Of a stretch of DNA of 64,000 bases, positions 31,580-50,243 are shown piece by piece (the first letter of the stretch is position 1; the number at the start of each line of letters is the position of its first letter). The translations under genes and the position numbers were made by a program. The notes beneath the pieces are model-generated. The model saw nothing but the letters and a program-made list of their open reading frames with translations, had not been told where the DNA came from and ran no database searches. Source of the stretch: an uncultured virus (IMG/VR IMGVR_UViG_2030936005_000022). Its lineage: Duplodnaviria; Heunggongvirae; Uroviricota; Caudoviricetes. The stretch lies in the IMG/VR virus record IMGVR_UViG_2030936005_000022, positions 1 through 64,000 of that record, one strand, 5' to 3'.

Positions 31580-31595
31580 TCCTTTGATTTATTTT

Positions 31596-32068
31596 TTATT
31601 TCAATATGTATAGATGTTTAGATGCATTTGTAATGCGGTGGTCAATGATTTCCGATATCACATCCCAGCACCCGCCGCCTAAGTCTGCCCCAATTTTAGG
31701 GAAGTGGAGATTTGTGCATCTCCCCGTTTCAGCGATAAAATCATTCATGTCTTTGAAGACAGTATCAATCGCATCATAGCTAACGTATTTTTCACCGTCA
31801 TAGCCATAAAATTCCTGAGTAATAGCATTCGCGATTAGTAAATTTTGATTAGCTAAGTAGTATACAGTACTTCCAAGTTTTAAACCTTCAGTTTCATGTA
31901 CTTTTTTGTATTCTTCATATGCAGCAGGATAACGTTCACGAAGTTCTTTAGCAAACCGGAACCCATACGACCTTGTGCATTACAACCATGTACTATAATA
32001 TGTAAATGGTCAGAGTTAACTGATAAACTGTACTTATCAAATAAATTACCATACGATGAATGTATCAT
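31596..32068 (-). CDS. Macrodomain protein (ADP-ribose processing), apparent -1 frameshift at 31953-31955
   Basis: IVHGCNAQGRMGSG, then in the other frame AKELRERYP..NAITQ..YDAI..FPKIGADLGGGCW..I. Confidence 0.85.
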
Positions 32069-32082
32069 AATATCCTCAGATG

Positions 32083-32112
32083 AAAAAAGGACTCTTGTTC
32101 AGGAGTCCTTTT
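32083..32112 (-). terminator. Intrinsic terminator
   Basis: AAAAGGGACTCTTG / CAGGAGTCCTTTT inverted repeat. Confidence 0.75.
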
Positions 32113-32120
32113 AATTATTA

Positions 32121-44276: not shown

Positions 44277-44454
44277 CGTTGGAAATCCTAATACTATCTC
44301 CGTAGCTGTTTATTTTTTCACCATCATATTCAATTTCAACGTTTACGTTCCAGTACTCGTTGTTAGAATAAGGTTCAGCAGTAATACTCACTTGTACTGT
44401 CATATTTTCTAATATCAATTCTTTGATATACGCTTCAATTTCTTCTTTAGTCAT
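44269..44454 (-). CDS. Hypothetical protein
   Basis: 61 aa coupled ORF. Confidence 0.55.
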   Translation of the reverse strand: MTKEEIEAYIKELILENMTVQVSITAEPYSNNEYWNVNVEIEYDGEKINSYGDSIRISNDG

Positions 44455-44657
44455 TAACTTACCTTACTGACACGATCATGATCGCGACAATAAGTGGTTT
44501 CGACAATTTTTCCATCAACTATAGGATTCATCCAAACTTTCTTAGGTGTAACTTTGAAGATTTTTCCCATTAGAAGTGTACTACCATTGTCATGACCAAA
44601 TGCCACGATATCATCAATATTAACTTCTTTTCCGCTTACGTCTTTCGCTTCCATCAT
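44454..44657 (-). CDS. Hypothetical protein
   Basis: 67 aa coupled ORF. Confidence 0.55.
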   Translation of the reverse strand: MMEAKDVSGKEVNIDDIVAFGHDNGSTLLMGKIFKVTPKKVWMNPIVDGKIVETTYCRDHDRVSKVS

Positions 44658-47706: not shown

Positions 47707-48108
47707 TTAGTTCTGGAAAGAAAAGTTAACTCCCGATCTAAAATGCTTATTAATATGAGTCATTGTCTCAGATAGACGTTCAAGATCATACGTATTTCTA
47801 TTTCGAATATTCACAATCATTGCATGATCTACATCGGTAACATCCATAAGTTCACACCACTTCTTCATAAAGAAGAGTGTTTTTGGTCTTTTTAGTACTT
47901 CAACTTGTCTTGGGAATCCAATTAAGTAGACATTCTCTCCACACTCTGCGTGATGTACACAGAAATCTAATATTTCATGACAATCAATTGGTTCATCTGG
48001 ATTCATGAAGGTTAGATCGTTTGGATATACAGAGGATAATTGAATGTATATAGAGGTTAAATTTTGGAAGAATTCACTTTCTTTACTGAAGTCAATTATT
48101 TTTGTCAT
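47707..48108 (-). CDS. Hypothetical protein
   Basis: Likely ATG 48108 (RBS AAAGAGA). Confidence 0.55.
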   Translation of the reverse strand: MTKIIDFSKESEFFQNLTSIYIQLSSVYPNDLTFMNPDEPIDCHEILDFCVHHAECGENVYLIGFPRQVEVLKRPKTLFFMKKWCELMDVTDVDHAMIVNIRNRNTYDLERLSETMTHINKHFRSGVNFSFQN

Positions 48109-48286
48109 ATTATAATTCTCTTTATATTCGCTGACCAACTCATTGCATTCGTTAGTCAAGAATTCATTACTTCGTTAGCTATCGCTATCGCTCATCTAAC
48201 TTGTACTGAATTGGAATATTTCAATTGTACTTTAATTATTGACACGGTTTGTTAGCCAATTCCACTCCCCCCACAAAGGAGGGACG

Positions 48287-48309
48287 AAAAAAAATCAGGA
48301 TAATCCTGA
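48287..48309 (-). terminator. Intrinsic terminator ending the putative ncRNA
   Basis: Minus strand TCAGGA-TTA-TCCTGA-TTTTTTTT. Confidence 0.7.
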
Positions 48310-48771
48310 CACTGGTAGTCATACCAATCTGAATTTGTAGATTTTACTCAAATTCCAGACGGATCAATCCATTTGGAATAAAAGTAATCGCTGGCGGGTT
48401 GTCCGGTTTCCAGCTACTACAGTCGCATACAACGGTCGTGTTCCTCACACGCATACAGTACTTGCTAATTCAGCAACAAATACTGCTGTCTCTCCGTAAA
48501 GAGACTCCCTTTCAACTAGGTGAGTATGCCTCATATGTCTATCTAGGGCGTTTATGTTTTCTTACACGCCTTTATTGTGCCGCATTGCCGTGTCGCGTGT
48601 GATTTACTGTCCATTGGATTGACTACACTTACGCTTTATTACTGACGGGTTTCTTTTGCACATCGTACTGAACGAACTACTCATCTGCCATCTACTTTTC
48701 GATAGGATCAGGTTTCAATCTTCATGCTTTCACATGTCATTCAGGATTGGTATGACGAGGGTATCCCTCAT
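48287..48771 (-). ncRNA. Putative large (~480 nt) structured non-coding RNA of unknown class
   Basis: No credible ORF; promoter at 48777-48805; terminator at 48287-48309; 17-bp closing helix; many nested hairpins with GNRA/UNCG-type loops. Confidence 0.7.
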
Positions 48772-48776
48772 CATAT

Positions 48777-48807
48777 ATTATATCACAAAAAAACCCTTTT
48801 GTCCCAA
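48777..48807 (-). promoter_or_regulatory. Conserved phage promoter, copy 5 (drives the ncRNA)
   Basis: Minus strand TTGGGACA-AAAGGGTTTTTTTGTGA-TATAAT. Confidence 0.8.
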
Positions 48808-48808
48808 C

Positions 48809-49590: not shown

Positions 49591-49601
49591 ATTGTATTTT
49601 A

Positions 49602-50243
49602 TTATGCCTGTTCTGTCAACACTTTTTTCAATGCTTTGTTATGACGATTATAAGCCCCTACATGAGCCGCACAGAGGCCGCTGAGGTAATCGGCTACCTT
49701 GGCTTCACGCATCTCATTGCGGTGCTTCACGATGGCCTTGTACTCTTCCGTACCCTCTTCACGCTTACGCAAACGATAATGATGTAGAGATGTAGCACGA
49801 CTAGTAATCAAAGACTGACCATGCTCTTTGTAGCGAGCCAAGAAATCTTCAAGGTTTGGATAGCGAGATCCACGTAGCTGATTACACTTTCTGCACATAG
49901 TGTTGAAGTTTGATTCAACATCGGGACCACCTTGGGATTTAAGAATGTTGTGGTCAACGGTCATTAGTTGCCAAAATTCACCCCAAGTAGTTTCTGCACG
50001 TCCATAAACGTTTAAGTGCATCATACCAAAGATAGCATGAGTACCTTTACCTTCTTCTAAACGTACTTCATGAGATTCGATCCCGCAGCAAATACATTTA
50101 CTATTCTTCAAGAAAGTTGCAACTTTCTCTGGGAAGTAGTTAAACTTCACACCATCAACTTCTGCACTTGTCATCGGACCAGAAGTTTTTAACGTTTTCA
50201 GAACATCTAATGGTAGTACTTTATTGACTTTATAACCCAGCAT
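49602..50243 (-). CDS. HNH endonuclease-domain protein
   Basis: CICCG..TVDHNILKSQGG..NFNTMCRKCNQLRG. Confidence 0.8.
   Translation of the reverse strand: MLGYKVNKVLPLDVLKTLKTSGPMTSAEVDGVKFNYFPEKVATFLKNSKCICCGIESHEVRLEEGKGTHAIFGMMHLNVYGRAETTWGEFWQLMTVDHNILKSQGGPDVESNFNTMCRKCNQLRGSRYPNLEDFLARYKEHGQSLITSRATSLHHYRLRKREEGTEEYKAIVKHRNEMREAKVADYLSGLCAAHVGAYNRHNKALKKVLTEQA

What the first reader, a model, noticed from the sequence alone, without database searches (positions are those of the whole stretch)
48287..48771. Large, independently transcribed, highly structured ncRNA candidate (~480 nt)
Seen in sequence: this is the only long gene-free interval in a very dense window and is visibly GC-richer. 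A conserved promoter (48777-48805) points into it and a hairpin+T8 terminator (48287-48309) closes it. Its ends pair: 5' GUCAUACCAAUC(C)UGAAU (48756-48739) with 3' AUUCAGAUUGGUAUGAC (48334-48318), 17 bp with one bulged C. Nested helices include CAUGU-GAAA-GCAUG (48723-36), GUCUCUU-UACG-GAGAGAC (48488-505), long-range UCACACGC/GCGUGUGA (48595-602 with 48445-52), GGCGU/ACGCC (48547-70), CUAG..UGAG/CUCA..CUAG (48516-46), CAGUA..UUGCU/AGCAA..UACUG (48456-85), GCUGG/CCAGC (48390-414) and a 12-bp stem (48353-78). The G-U pairs and tetraloops work on the minus strand only. I do not recognise tmRNA, RNase P, group I/II intron or tRNA hallmarks. Inference: a large ornate phage RNA (size class of ROOL/GOLLD-type RNAs) or a new class, possibly a ribozyme, protein sponge or RNP scaffold.
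Basis: partly seen in the sequence, partly recalled or inferred. Interest (0 to 1): 0.92.

Follow-up and report, generated by a model that had tools for sequence, protein, structure and literature searches.

The report
Five-copy structured RNA of jumbo phages
This gene-free gap encodes a roughly 450-550-base, intricately knotted RNA with a conserved tail that matches no known RNA family, occurs five times in each giant phage genome of this group and once in some bacterial defence islands, and may mark where the phage starts copying its DNA.

Summary
Window 48239-48805 (minus strand) is one copy of an undescribed element: a sigma-70-type promoter, a ~430-nt RNA core, a direct repeat (DR1), an optional terminator, a C-run/G-run hairpin and a second repeat (DR2). 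Rfam 15 gives nothing.

I collected 71 phage copies. Thirteen of 16 near-complete Rak2-like jumbo-phage genomes have five each, all on one strand and spaced more evenly than chance. On their alignment, 89 proposed pairs are 92.7% paired, against 73.1% in shuffles and 38-43% in slid controls. Sixty-eight pairs show changes on both sides, and five helices are pseudoknots.

DR1 and DR2 co-vary as identical sequences, not complementary ones. The end block occurs only beside the RNA.

Single complete copies lie beside integrases in small islands in Enterobacterales chromosomes; two of these carry DarTG or Kiwa.

My best reading (about 0.4) is a cis-acting replication-origin module with a structured pre-primer RNA. 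A trans-acting RNA or RNP machine is nearly as likely. No transcript ends were obtained.

The parts
48777..48805 (-). Promoter: -35-like TTGGGAC, 17-nt spacer, TG-extended -10 TATAAT
   Evidence: 10 of 12 matches, TG present. A TG[AG][AG]AC-like hexamer lies 17-18 nt upstream of the -10 in 54 of the 56 copies (of 71) where the motif was found, and TG sits at -15/-14 in 50 of 56. Bacterial copies have the same type.
48306..48771 (-). RNA core (about 465 nt, from the inferred start about 6 nt after the -10 to the end of DR1)
   Evidence: MFE z -5.0. 89 pairs in 16 helices are 92.7% paired, and 68 show changes on both sides. The start and end are inferred, not mapped.
48668..48744 (-). P1 pseudoknot helix: CUGAAUGA (48744-48737) with UCGUUCAG (48675-48668). 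It encloses hairpin P2 (48736-48723) and P3 (48711-48685) and crosses P4 (48680-78 with 48667-65).
   Evidence: helix 1 (7 of 8 pairs changed on both sides, 86.7% paired), helix 2 (P3, 90.7%) and helix 3 (P4, 100%). P2 is helices 2-3.
48576..48662 (-). P5 (48662-58 with 48580-76) and P6 (48648-45 with 48591-88), enclosing a lineage-variable insert
   Evidence: helices 4 and 5, both 100% paired; 4 of 5 P5 pairs show changes on both sides.
48535..48585 (-). PK3: AUG (48585-83) with CAU (48537-35), crossing P5
   Evidence: helix 6: 3 of 3 pairs changed on both sides, 100% paired. Also.
48547..48570 (-). P8 hairpin GGCGU/ACGCC
   Evidence: helix 7: 5 of 5 pairs changed on both sides, 96.9% paired.
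48456..48505 (-). P10 hairpin (48505-48488) and P11 hairpin (48485-48456), whose loop CUGAAUU (48473-67) forms PK1
   Evidence: helices 10-13; helix 9 (11 of 11 pairs changed on both sides).
48329..48340 (-). 3' tail strand CUACA-AAUUCAG. PK2 (48340-36) pairs with UGUAG (48421-17). PK1 (48335-29) pairs with the P11 loop.
   Evidence: helices 13 and 10: 98.9% and 99.0% paired, with 5 of 5 and 7 of 7 pairs changed on both sides.
48390..48451 (-). P12 hairpin (48451-37), then an H-type pseudoknot. S1 is GUUGU (48433-29) with ACAAC (48402-398). S2 is GCUGG (48414-10) with CCAGC (48394-90). The near-invariant GACCGU and ACCCGC flank it.
   Evidence: helices 11, 12 and 14 (S1 and S2 100% paired). 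The pair 48429/48402 reads CG 34, UA 34, AU 2, GC 1. GACCGU is present in 71 of 71 copies.
48344..48387 (-).
   Evidence: helix 15 (96.9% paired, 3 of 4 pairs changed on both sides). In other paralogue classes the module sits at a different place (alignment).
48306..48316 (-). DR1: ACCAGUGUCAG
   Evidence: it co-varies with DR2 as a direct repeat.
48287..48310 (-). Intrinsic-terminator-like hairpin GUCAGGAUUAUCCUGA plus U8 (optional in the family)
   Evidence: About 38 of 68 copies have an insert bearing a T-run here and about 30 have none. T-runs were tested only in the 31 inserts of 35 nt or more (31 of 31); the 7 inserts of 33-34 nt are counted by length.
48239..48284 (-). End block: C-run/G-run hairpin (48284-48266), a spacer, and DR2 AACCGUGUCAA (48249-48239)
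   Evidence: 70 of 71 copies match. The pattern occurs 5, 5, 5 and 2 times in Munch, BF, GAP32 and this record, always beside the RNA, with 0 elsewhere and 0 for the reversed control. The hairpin is 86% paired with one-sided C/U changes only (helix 16). Its flanks covary between two Serratia copies.

Best explanation
SHOWN. Window 48239-48805 (minus strand) is one member ('class B') of a previously undescribed family of 450-580-bp elements. Each has a sigma-70-type promoter and a ~430-nt RNA core with a conserved multi-pseudoknot fold and about 70 invariant nucleotides. An 11-nt repeat (DR1) follows, then an optional intrinsic terminator, a C-run/G-run hairpin, and a second copy of the repeat (DR2). 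Rak2-like jumbo phages carry five ancient paralogues per ~350-kb genome, all on one strand and spaced more evenly than chance. Single complete copies sit next to integrases in small integrative islands of Enterobacterales; two of five examined carry known defence systems.

INFERRED (my commitment, about 0.4). The element works in cis as a replication-origin module. Host RNA polymerase transcribes the folded RNA, which acts as a structured pre-primer in the manner of ColE1 RNA II or the T4 oriF/oriG origin transcripts (recalled knowledge). The G-run and the DR2 DNA next to it are where the RNA is anchored. DR1 near the RNA's 3' end has the same sequence as DR2, so it can pair with the template strand at DR2. 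The RNA is then handed to the phage replisome. The islands would have captured one copy so that an infecting jumbo phage replicates them, and perhaps packages them.

I put the claim that this is a genuine, conserved structured RNA family at about 0.97. The 0.4 refers to the origin/pre-primer mechanism.
For: Structure. 89 pairs are 92.7% paired against 73.1% in shuffles (0 of 500 as high) and 38-43% when partners are slid. 68 of 89 pairs change on both sides. The covariation score is 0.541 against 0.187. No Rfam family matches.

A cis-acting role is suggested by six things.
(a) The end block lies beyond a terminator-like insert in about 38 of 68 copies, yet it is conserved in 70 of 71 and found nowhere else in four records.
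(b) DR1 and DR2 change together as identical sequences: Y in AYCA/AAYC throughout, C to U in both repeats in one copy, and GUCA to GACA in both in Serratia sp. 2723. My hand search of the covariation lists found no convincing complementary third segment.
(c) Copy number tracks genome size. There are five per ~350 kb in 13 of 16 genomes (4, 4 and 3 in the others) and one per island of roughly 10-12 kb, with one copy per bacterial genome in 5 of 5.
(d) All copies in a genome share a strand, and spacing is more even than random (P 0.001-0.02 in 5 of 6 genomes, 0.07 in XaC1; the genomes are related, so these are not independent).
(e) Neighbouring genes are unrelated between the five sites, and in one site and in S. 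fonticola they converge on the element, so it is not the leader of a particular gene.
(f) Of the island features tested against the phages, only the RNA element is shared: two island proteins have no significant match in four phage records (none for the 286-aa protein; best E 0.0013 for the ParB-like one). The Pfam/PHROGs scans of the island ORFs I submitted named no replication initiator or primase, although several of those ORFs are unassigned.

From recalled knowledge: T4 has several dispersed origins primed by promoter transcripts; plasmids carrying a T4 origin are replicated and packaged on infection (Kreuzer and Alberts, 1980s); and G-clusters nucleate R-loops.
Against: No experiment or read data here shows replication initiation, an R-loop or transcript ends. 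One search gave assembled contigs only.

The cumulative GC skew of the BF genome shows no inflection at four of five sites. That is uninformative for T4-like replication, but it is no support either.

The promoter looks like an ordinary strong sigma-70 promoter. Its link to 'DNA-synthesis' promoters rests on passages of one paper (PMC5259590).

A terminator placed before the G-run in about 38 of 68 copies is awkward for an R-loop at the G-run. About 70 invariant unpaired nucleotides and five pseudoknots are more than any known primer RNA needs, and fit a ribozyme or RNP at least as well. The AT-richness downstream of DR2 is modest: 72.5% against 65.6% for the genome, about 1 sd.
Confidence: 0.4

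Rival explanations
1. A trans-acting RNA machine. The five paralogues would be stable, discrete RNAs that fold into a compact particle and act in trans: as a ribozyme, as an RNP with a phage or host protein, or as an RNA-only assembly of the ROOL/GOLLD kind. The island copy would be a decoy or hijacking mimic.
For: The conservation is on a ribozyme scale: about 70 invariant positions, mostly outside helices, and five pseudoknot helices 87-100% paired. The element has its own promoter, and about 38 of 68 copies have a terminator-like insert. Five distinct paralogue classes are kept across genera. All five XaC1 copies share genome-specific features, as expected if they fit one genome-specific partner.
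Against: It does not explain why the block beyond the terminator is conserved and exclusive to the element. It does not explain why DR1 and DR2 stay identical rather than complementary. It does not explain why copies are evenly spaced on one strand. And a small island has little reason to carry the whole unit when the phage brings five.
Confidence: 0.3
2. A cis-acting transcription-unit leader. The nascent RNA, together with the hairpin and spacer of the end block, would modify the transcribing RNA polymerase. The polymerase would then read through the terminator that follows and through long downstream operons, as put of HK022, lambda nut and rrn boxB-boxA do (recalled knowledge).
For: Each copy follows the end of an upstream unit and precedes genes. 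A terminator is annotated just upstream of Munch copy A. A terminator directly follows the RNA in many copies. The copies lie on the strand of most genes, and one sits at the strand switch near 170 kb in BF. The end block has a hairpin followed by CUCAACAAA, which faintly recalls the boxB-boxA order (my reading).
Against: Downstream genes converge on the element in Munch copy C, in 121Q and in S. fonticola. The island cargo genes are mostly on the other strand. Known antitermination RNAs are 5-8 times smaller. The resemblance to boxA is weak, and I ran no test of it.
Confidence: 0.1
3. A selfish or relic mobile RNA element, such as a degenerate ORF-less intron or retroelement, that spread into intergenic sites of phages and islands and has no function for the carrier.
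For: It is multi-copy and present in unrelated replicons (phages and chromosomal islands). Short direct repeats flank its 3' part.
Against: The positions are syntenic across genera, so the copies are ancient rather than recently mobile. Purifying selection on structure is strong. The element interrupts no gene and carries its own promoter. Rfam finds no group I or II intron signal even at E up to 10.
Confidence: 0.05
4. The interval is protein-coding (small ORFs), or is only ordinary promoter and terminator spacer DNA.
For: Some GenBank records-38-aa ORFs inside the homologous gap. The window has ORFs of 33-67 aa here.
Against: The called ORFs differ in position and strand between genomes. Seven of the 12 records inspected at this syntenic site annotate nothing in the gap; the Munch record leaves the gaps at all five of its sites unannotated. 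Indels are not in multiples of three, and conservation follows base pairing, G-U pairs included.
Confidence: 0.02

Closest known systems
ROOL, GOLLD, OLE and raiA-type large 'ornate' bacterial and phage RNAs
   Same: The size class (about 450-550 nt), many conserved helices plus conserved unpaired nucleotides, a phage association (ROOL and GOLLD), and unknown biochemical function.
   Different: No hit to any Rfam 15 model, which includes those families. The motifs differ (GACCGU...ACCCGC pseudoknot, GAUGAG, GAUAGAC, AAGGGAG). There are five fixed paralogues per genome, a conserved DR-hairpin-DR tail, and copies in integrative islands. Multimer formation was not tested.
ColE1 RNA II pre-primer and T4 oriF/oriG origin transcripts (recalled knowledge)
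   Same: A promoter-driven transcript whose fold and G-rich segment would set up a persistent RNA-DNA hybrid at a fixed site. T4-type phages have several dispersed origins. Replicons carrying an origin are copied by the infecting phage.
   Different: No sequence or structural similarity was tested or is known. The T4 origin RNAs are not known to be structured. The terminator before the G-run and the DR1/DR2 pair have no counterpart. Origin activity is not shown.
HK022 put RNA, lambda nut and rrn boxB-boxA antitermination sites (recalled knowledge)
   Same: A promoter-proximal cis-acting RNA followed by a terminator. The end block has a hairpin followed by a short conserved single-stranded motif.
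   Different: The element is 5-8 times larger. It is not always co-oriented with the downstream genes. The match to boxA is poor.
Hepadnavirus DR1/DR2 primer translocation and retroviral R-repeat strand transfer (recalled knowledge; an analogy only)
   Same: Two short identical direct repeats are kept identical because a nascent strand made at one repeat must anneal at the other.
   Different: There is no reverse transcriptase and no relation in sequence or host. It serves only as a model for why identity, rather than complementarity, would be selected.
Phage satellites that carry a helper's cis site (P4 cos, PICI pac/cos) (recalled knowledge)
   Same: Small integrase-bearing islands, some with defence cargo, that share with the phage only a non-coding element among the features tested.
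   Different: No capsid-redirecting, terminase or replication genes were recognised in the islands. Induction or transfer by a jumbo phage is untested.

Membership tests
Any Rfam 15 family (including ROOL, GOLLD, OLE, raiA, RNase P, group I/II introns, tmRNA, 6S, hammerhead) | A covariance-model score at or above the family's gathering threshold | tested here: not met
   0 matches over the whole window. The best permissive hits are the S15 leader (15.2 bits against 39.5 needed) and whalefall-1 (12.6 against 37). 18 paralogue loci gave 13 weak hits to 12 families, none recurring across loci.
Group I intron | Interrupts a gene (flanking exons) and has a P3-P7 core recognised by RF00028 | tested here: not met
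   The element has its own promoter directly upstream. The flanking genes are intact and differ between the five sites. No RF00028 hit at E up to 10.
tmRNA or tRNA-like RNA | A tRNA-like domain or tag reading frame detectable by ARAGORN | tested here: not met
   ARAGORN finds 0 genes in the window.
Stand-alone bacterial-type ncRNA gene | Own promoter and intrinsic terminator bounding a non-coding, conserved, structured region | tested here: inconclusive
   Promoter and terminator motifs are present and conserved, and covariation is strong. But about 30 of 68 copies lack the terminator, conservation runs past it, and no transcript ends were obtained.
T4-type replication origin (promoter plus downstream unwinding element, R-loop primed) | A promoter of the phage's replication-linked class | tested here: inconclusive
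   The -35-like TGAAAC/TGGGAC with TATAAT matches the 'divergent RpoD-like' class. The CBB paper reports 18 examples in CBB, with the passage on their location cut in what I saw but continuing into genes for DNA synthesis (passages of PMC5259590). The site also looks like a plain sigma-70 promoter.
T4-type replication origin | An AT-rich unwinding element downstream | tested here: inconclusive
   The first 60 nt after DR2 average 72.5% AT against 65.6% for the genome, about 1 sd.
T4-type replication origin | Initiates DNA synthesis; confers phage-dependent replication on a plasmid | not testable with these tools
   Needs marker-frequency data or a plasmid assay.
Processive antitermination RNA (put / nut / rrn type) | Lies upstream of, and co-oriented with, the genes whose transcription it protects | tested here: not met
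   Downstream genes converge on the element at Munch copy C, in 121Q and in S. fonticola. The feature is met at the other sites.
Phage satellite (for the bacterial islands) | An integrase-bearing island that shares a cis-acting element with a helper phage | tested here: met
   An integrase lies next to the element in 5 of 5 islands examined. The RNA element is complete. Two island proteins tested have no significant phage homologue.
Phage satellite (for the bacterial islands) | Induced, replicated or packaged by the helper | not testable with these tools
   Needs infection experiments.

The most novel reading that the evidence does not exclude
The element is a new kind of replication origin. 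A ribozyme-scale, five-pseudoknot pre-primer RNA is made in cis, and its 3' repeat (DR1) is transferred onto the identical DR2 site beside a G-run hairpin to start DNA synthesis, a primer translocation in a DNA phage. Small integrative islands of Enterobacterales, some carrying DarTG or Kiwa, have captured one such origin. That would make them the first recognised satellites of Rak2-like jumbo phages, replicated and possibly spread by the phage they defend against.
Probability: 0.2. Interest if true: 0.95.

Novelty: categorically new. Interest (0 to 1): 0.86.

Why it matters
Large RNAs with this much conserved tertiary-type structure are rare, and each one characterised so far has revealed new biochemistry. 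This one is easy to study. The phages are culturable (Munch, 121Q/PBECO4, BF, GAP32, CBB and others), and each genome offers five natural variants. 71 phage copies and 8 bacterial copies already give a covariation-supported fold suitable for cryo-EM or SHAPE.

If it is an origin, it would explain how ~350-kb T4-like genomes start replication, and it would be the first origin known to depend on so elaborate an RNA. The same element sits in integrase-bearing islands, some carrying DarTG or Kiwa. That points to an unrecognised class of jumbo-phage satellites, and to a route by which defence systems move.

The DR1/DR2 pair is a clean, unexplained signal that any correct mechanism must account for: two sequences kept identical rather than complementary.

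Tried and rejected
1. Public reads. All four runs laid were assembled contigs, so no starts, ends, strand or level could be read. Short contigs from two metatranscriptomes and one transcriptome lie on parts of the RNA region. In a wastewater 'RNA-Seq?' run, contigs of diverged relatives over the RNA have word depths of about 660-1100, against 2-76 on the flanks. The runs were chosen because they hold this stretch, and the deep contigs belong to other phages, so I draw no conclusion on expression.

2. The genome search does not accept a DNA alignment. I built a covariance model of the 5' domain instead.

3. Pseudomonas phage PA5oct has four RNA-seq-defined ncRNAs (abstract and passages of PMC7318152). 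Model R1 finds nothing there (best E 0.37), and by eye ncRNA002 shares no motif.

4. GCAAU/GUUGC long-range pairing. Rejected in favour of GUUGY/RCAAC, which has the compensatory changes.

5. Inner CGG/CCG pairing in the GGAAACCGGACAACCCGCC loop. Rejected because positions vary G/A opposite invariant C.

6. Hammerhead-like reading of CAGAUGAG...CGAA and GUC|A. The core positions vary or differ, and there is no Rfam hit.

7. A mini-ORF after the G-run (AUG AAA ...). By eye, the frame and length are not conserved and the indels are not in threes.

8. A third segment complementary to DR1/DR2. Only an invariant GAC/GUC and inconsistent registers turned up, and weak correlations with the loop position at window 48403 may be phylogenetic.

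9. GC skew as an origin signal: no signal.

10. Literature. Three searches, plus term look-ups in two 2026 preprints and in two jumbo-phage papers, found no description of this RNA. I read only listings and passages, not whole papers or supplements; the promoter tables of PMC5259590 may list some of these promoters.

11. Plasmids: no match.

12. The 28 pattern matches in bacterial genomes that lack an R1 hit are treated as chance.
Full report
WHAT THE WINDOW IS. By blastn the region is about 93% identical to Salmonella phages Munch, 7t3 and SE_PL and to Klebsiella phage fENko-Kae01. It has weaker matches in 62 phage records in all: Escherichia 33, Salmonella 8, Erwinia 8, Yersinia 4, and Serratia, Xanthomonas, Cronobacter and Pectobacterium 2 each. 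The window is part of a 136.8-kb fragment (38% complete) of a Rak2-like, T4-related jumbo phage.

THE OBSERVATION. The gap 48160-48808 is the longest stretch without an ORF of 90 aa or more (649 nt). Two shorter gaps also exist, at 31580-32120 and 44277-44619. The first of these is not structured (z -1.4). GC is 0.40-0.44 in the gap against 0.32-0.37 beside it.

The promoter-like and terminator-like sites are found at the stated places. The promoter scan is not above chance by itself: 7 sites against 8.1 +/- 2.8 expected. The minus strand folds with z -5.0 and the plus strand with z -3.9. Rfam gives nothing at gathering thresholds over the whole window and only sub-threshold noise at E up to 10. 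ARAGORN finds nothing.

HOMOLOGUES AND COPY NUMBER. The same gap is syntenic in Munch, Hallingskeid, EJP2, fHe-Yen9-04, pEa_SNUABM_49, BF, XaC1, GAP32, CBB, XbC2 and Kaldavass. Seven of these records annotate nothing in it. The others hold short ORFs that are inconsistent between genomes.

A BLAST of the element against its own record showed a second, diverged copy at about 118.3-118.9 kb, outside the window. I built a covariance model of the 5' domain (R1: 117 positions, 19 pairs) and searched whole records. Counts per genome:
- Five copies in BF, GAP32 and Munch, and four in 121Q.
- Five in Hallingskeid, EJP2, fHe-Yen9-04, XaC1 and CBB.
- Five in XbC2 and in four complete IMG/VR genomes.
- Four and three in two further IMG/VR genomes.
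- None in PA5oct (best E 0.37).

So 13 of the 16 genomes that carry the element have five copies. E-values are mostly 1e-20 to 1e-30. Two class-D copies score weakly (E 4e-5 and 5e-4), but they carry the other marks described below. One extra weak hit on the opposite strand in GAP32 (E 6.5e-4) was not examined.

Within each genome all strong hits lie on one strand, and their positions correspond between genera. Gaps between copies are 44-94 kb (34 kb at the smallest, in XaC1). A smallest gap this large occurs by chance with P 0.001-0.02 in five of six genomes and 0.07 in XaC1. These genomes are related, so the tests are not independent.

All 71 collected copies have a -10 hexamer 60-80 nt upstream of the model hit and the GACCGU core. 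Seventy of 71 have the end-block motif. At the five Munch sites the element fills unannotated gaps of 570-690 bp between unrelated genes. One site is convergent with the genes downstream, as is the 121Q copy between the endonuclease VII and baseplate-hub genes.

STRUCTURE. On the 71-sequence alignment A3 I looked for stacked column pairs with compensatory changes. I then submitted an 89-pair, 16-helix structure with four bracket types to the pair counter. The results:
- 92.7% of cells are paired, against 73.1 +/- 0.4% in shuffles (0 of 500 as high) and 38-43% when partners are slid by 1-3 columns.
- 68 of 89 pairs change on both sides, against 52.9 in shuffles.
- The covariation score is 0.541, against 0.187 in shuffles and at most 0.106 in slid controls.

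The shuffle control ignores relatedness, but the slid controls keep it.

The fold has a 5' domain in which CUGAAUGA (48744-37) pairs with UCGUUCAG (48675-68), inside the loop of a 3-bp helix. This makes a pseudoknot that encloses hairpins P2 and P3. Two long-range helices, P5 and P6, close a variable insert, and a 3-bp pseudoknot joins AUG (48585-83) to CAU (48537-35).

The 3' domain contains an H-type pseudoknot, GUUGU/ACAAC crossing GCUGG/CCAGC. One of its pairs reads CG 34, UA 34, AU 2, GC 1. The 3' tail CUACA-AAUUCAG (48340-29) pairs both with the first loop of that pseudoknot (UGUAG, 48421-17) and with the loop of hairpin P11 (CUGAAUU, 48473-67). These helices are 99% paired, with 5 of 5 and 7 of 7 pairs changed on both sides.

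About 70 columns are invariant in all 71 copies, many of them unpaired: GAUGAG, GAUAG, AAGGGA, GACCGU, ACCCGC and GUCA. G-U is the commonest pair at several positions, so the fold belongs to the transcribed strand.

Scored on 17 relatives, the terminal stem is 65.7% paired. Its outer 12 bp are specific to the window's near relatives. Two compensatory changes in Hallingskeid, seen by eye, suggest that this outer part may be a real lineage-specific helix. The inner part conflicts with P1 and PK1.

The UCACACGC/GCGUGUGA helix and CUAG/CUAG fail. Five local hairpins are supported. The 12-bp stem at 48353-78 was not entered in either count; from the alignment it looks like a module hairpin containing GAUCCGUC, which sits elsewhere in other paralogue classes.

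THE TAIL. After the core comes DR1 (window ACCAGUGUCAG). About 38 of 68 copies then have a hairpin-plus-T-run insert, and about 30 have none. T-runs were tested only in the 31 inserts of 35 nt or more, and all 31 have one; the 7 inserts of 33-34 nt, the window's among them, are counted by length. A C-run/G-run hairpin follows, then 13-16 nt, then DR2 (AACCGUGUCAA).

This end block is found only next to the RNA. It occurs 5, 5, 5 and 2 times in four records, nowhere else, and never in the reversed control.

DR1 and DR2 vary between copies, even within one genome, but they vary together and in the same sense. AUCA pairs with AAUC and ACCA with AACC throughout. One copy has C to U in both repeats. 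The Serratia sp. 2723 copy has GACA for the otherwise invariant GUCA in both repeats, while its near-identical sister copy in S. fonticola has GUCA in both. The flanks of the C/G hairpin also covary between those two copies.

I found no third segment whose changes complement the DRs. Identity without complementarity is what one expects if a strand made at one repeat must anneal at the other. That step is inference.

BACTERIAL COPIES. An exact-pattern scan for the pseudoknot core found 52 matches on 22 IMG/VR contigs (not all verified, and one 45-kb contig has no R1 hit). It found 36 matches in one-genome-per-species bacterial contigs. Eight of the 36 also carry the 5' domain (R1 E 2e-21 to 8e-25). 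The other 28 do not and are taken as chance.

The eight are:
- the complete chromosome of Serratia fonticola GTA-SR07
- Serratia sp. 2723
- Silvania hatchlandensis
- Enterobacteriaceae bacterium RIT714
- Enterobacter chinensis
- two enterobacterial MAGs
- a 2.8-kb contig binned as Clostridium

Five genomes were searched whole and each has one copy. Among sampled relatives the element is rare. It is in 1 of 151 genomes of the family (the seed itself), in 2 of 5,426 complete E. coli genomes, and in no plasmid.

The copies are complete: promoter of the same type, every core motif, DR1, hairpin and DR2. In all five contexts examined the element lies beside an integrase, inside or at the edge of a small island:
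- E. chinensis, between nadC and a T2SSE gene: large serine recombinase, RNA, CI-like S24 repressor, a 286-aa protein, LprI, small resolvase, DarG-like glycohydrolase, DarT, UvrD-like helicase.
- RIT714: tyrosine integrase beside corC, RNA, then further genes and KwaB with a KwaA-like gene (Kiwa).
- Silvania: large serine recombinase, RNA, CI-like repressor.
- S. fonticola: Hcp, DUF4225, large serine recombinase, two ParB/RepB-like genes, RNA, then rof, rof, tilS.
- E. coli LR-29-1: ffs, IS3, tyrosine-integrase fragment, RNA in a 1.4-kb unannotated gap, hypothetical genes, DUF4326/DUF488/dual-OB genes, recombinase, ybaA.

Two island proteins tested have no significant match in four phage records: none for the 286-aa protein, and best E 0.0013 for the ParB-like protein. 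The family scans of the island ORFs I submitted named no replication initiator or primase, although several of those ORFs have no family.

HOW IT MOST LIKELY WORKS. Four things are shown:
- a conserved, strand-specific, multi-pseudoknot RNA fold
- a conserved tail beyond the terminator
- five dispersed co-oriented copies per phage genome
- one copy per island

From these I infer that the unit acts in cis and needs both the folded RNA and the adjacent tail. The best-fitting known logic is a transcript-primed replication origin. From recalled knowledge, T4-type phages have several such origins, plasmids carrying one are replicated and packaged by T4, ColE1 uses a ~550-nt folded pre-primer, and G-clusters seed R-loops. 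One origin per roughly 70 kb, and one on a small island with no recognised replicase, both fit that logic. DR1 annealing to the template strand at DR2 would explain why the repeats stay identical.

Several things count against it. There is no direct evidence of initiation. A terminator precedes the G-run in more than half the copies. The promoter looks like an ordinary sigma-70 site. The CBB paper notes this divergent class: 18 examples in CBB, with the passage on their location cut in what I saw but continuing into genes for DNA synthesis (passages only). GC skew gives no signal. And the fold is far more elaborate than priming is known to need.

I therefore give the origin/pre-primer reading about 0.4, a trans-acting ribozyme, RNP or RNA-only particle about 0.3, an antitermination leader about 0.1, and other or unknown roles the rest.

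NOVELTY. No Rfam family matches. Three literature searches and look-ups in four papers found no description. These covered listings and passages only; supplements were not read. GenBank and RefSeq annotate nothing, or only inconsistent mini-ORFs, at these sites. The RNA class, its tail with co-varying direct repeats, its fixed five-fold copy number and its presence in integrative islands have no counterpart that I know of.

Noticed in passing
Same record outside the window: G000:C1 about 118,300-118,920, minus strand (locus L002 about 1045-1660): A second, diverged paralogue ('class A') of the element, with promoter, core and end block. It has no terminator between DR1 and the G-run hairpin. 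Its end block lies at 118365-118396.
   Followed up: yes
window 31580-32120: The second-longest stretch without an ORF of 90 aa or more (541 nt). It holds two short minus-strand ORFs (62 and 50 aa) and is not unusually structured (z -1.4). It may be a split or frameshifted gene.
   Followed up: partly
window about 48105-48160, and the homologous place in L011-L019: Just upstream of the next gene's start there is a conserved inverted repeat, TTCTTGRCTWACGnAGTWAGnCAATG in the other genera and a variant in the window. It overlaps a promoter-like site (48137-48109). It could be an operator or a translational hairpin for the ~125-150-aa gene that precedes a Dps/ferritin-like gene.
   Followed up: no
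L227, L228 and L230, about 60-90 nt upstream of the island copies' promoters: A perfect 12-bp inverted repeat, CCTATAAATATC-GGTA-GATATTTATAGG, is conserved in the E. chinensis, RIT714 and Silvania islands. It could be an operator (a CI-like repressor gene is adjacent) or an attachment-site feature.
   Followed up: no
XaC1 record (loci L063, L068, L073, L075, L079): The five copies in Xanthomonas phage XaC1 cluster with each other rather than with their positional counterparts in other phages. They share a long P2 extension. This indicates concerted evolution or a genome-specific partner. The Enterobacter-group island copies carry a similar extension.
   Followed up: partly
L226 10676-11391 (S. 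fonticola): Two tandem rof genes (Rho-termination modulators) lie between the island's RNA end and tilS. One may be island cargo or a duplication at the integration site.
   Followed up: no
Munch record 263543-264508 (L057) and L230 3979-5664: An ADP-ribosylglycohydrolase gene directly follows Munch copy D, and a DarG-like ADP-ribosylglycohydrolase is cargo of the E. chinensis island. I did not test whether the two are related.
   Followed up: no
PA5oct record MK797984.1 21951-22401 (L109): The published RNA-seq-defined 451-nt 'ncRNA002' of this related jumbo phage is GC-rich and unannotated in function. It is not detectably related to the family described here.
   Followed up: partly
window about 49600-50240 and Munch L009 1108-1746: An HNH homing-endonuclease gene and an i-/o-spannin pair lie a few genes upstream of the element in Munch. 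In XaC1 an HNH gene directly abuts the element.
   Followed up: no
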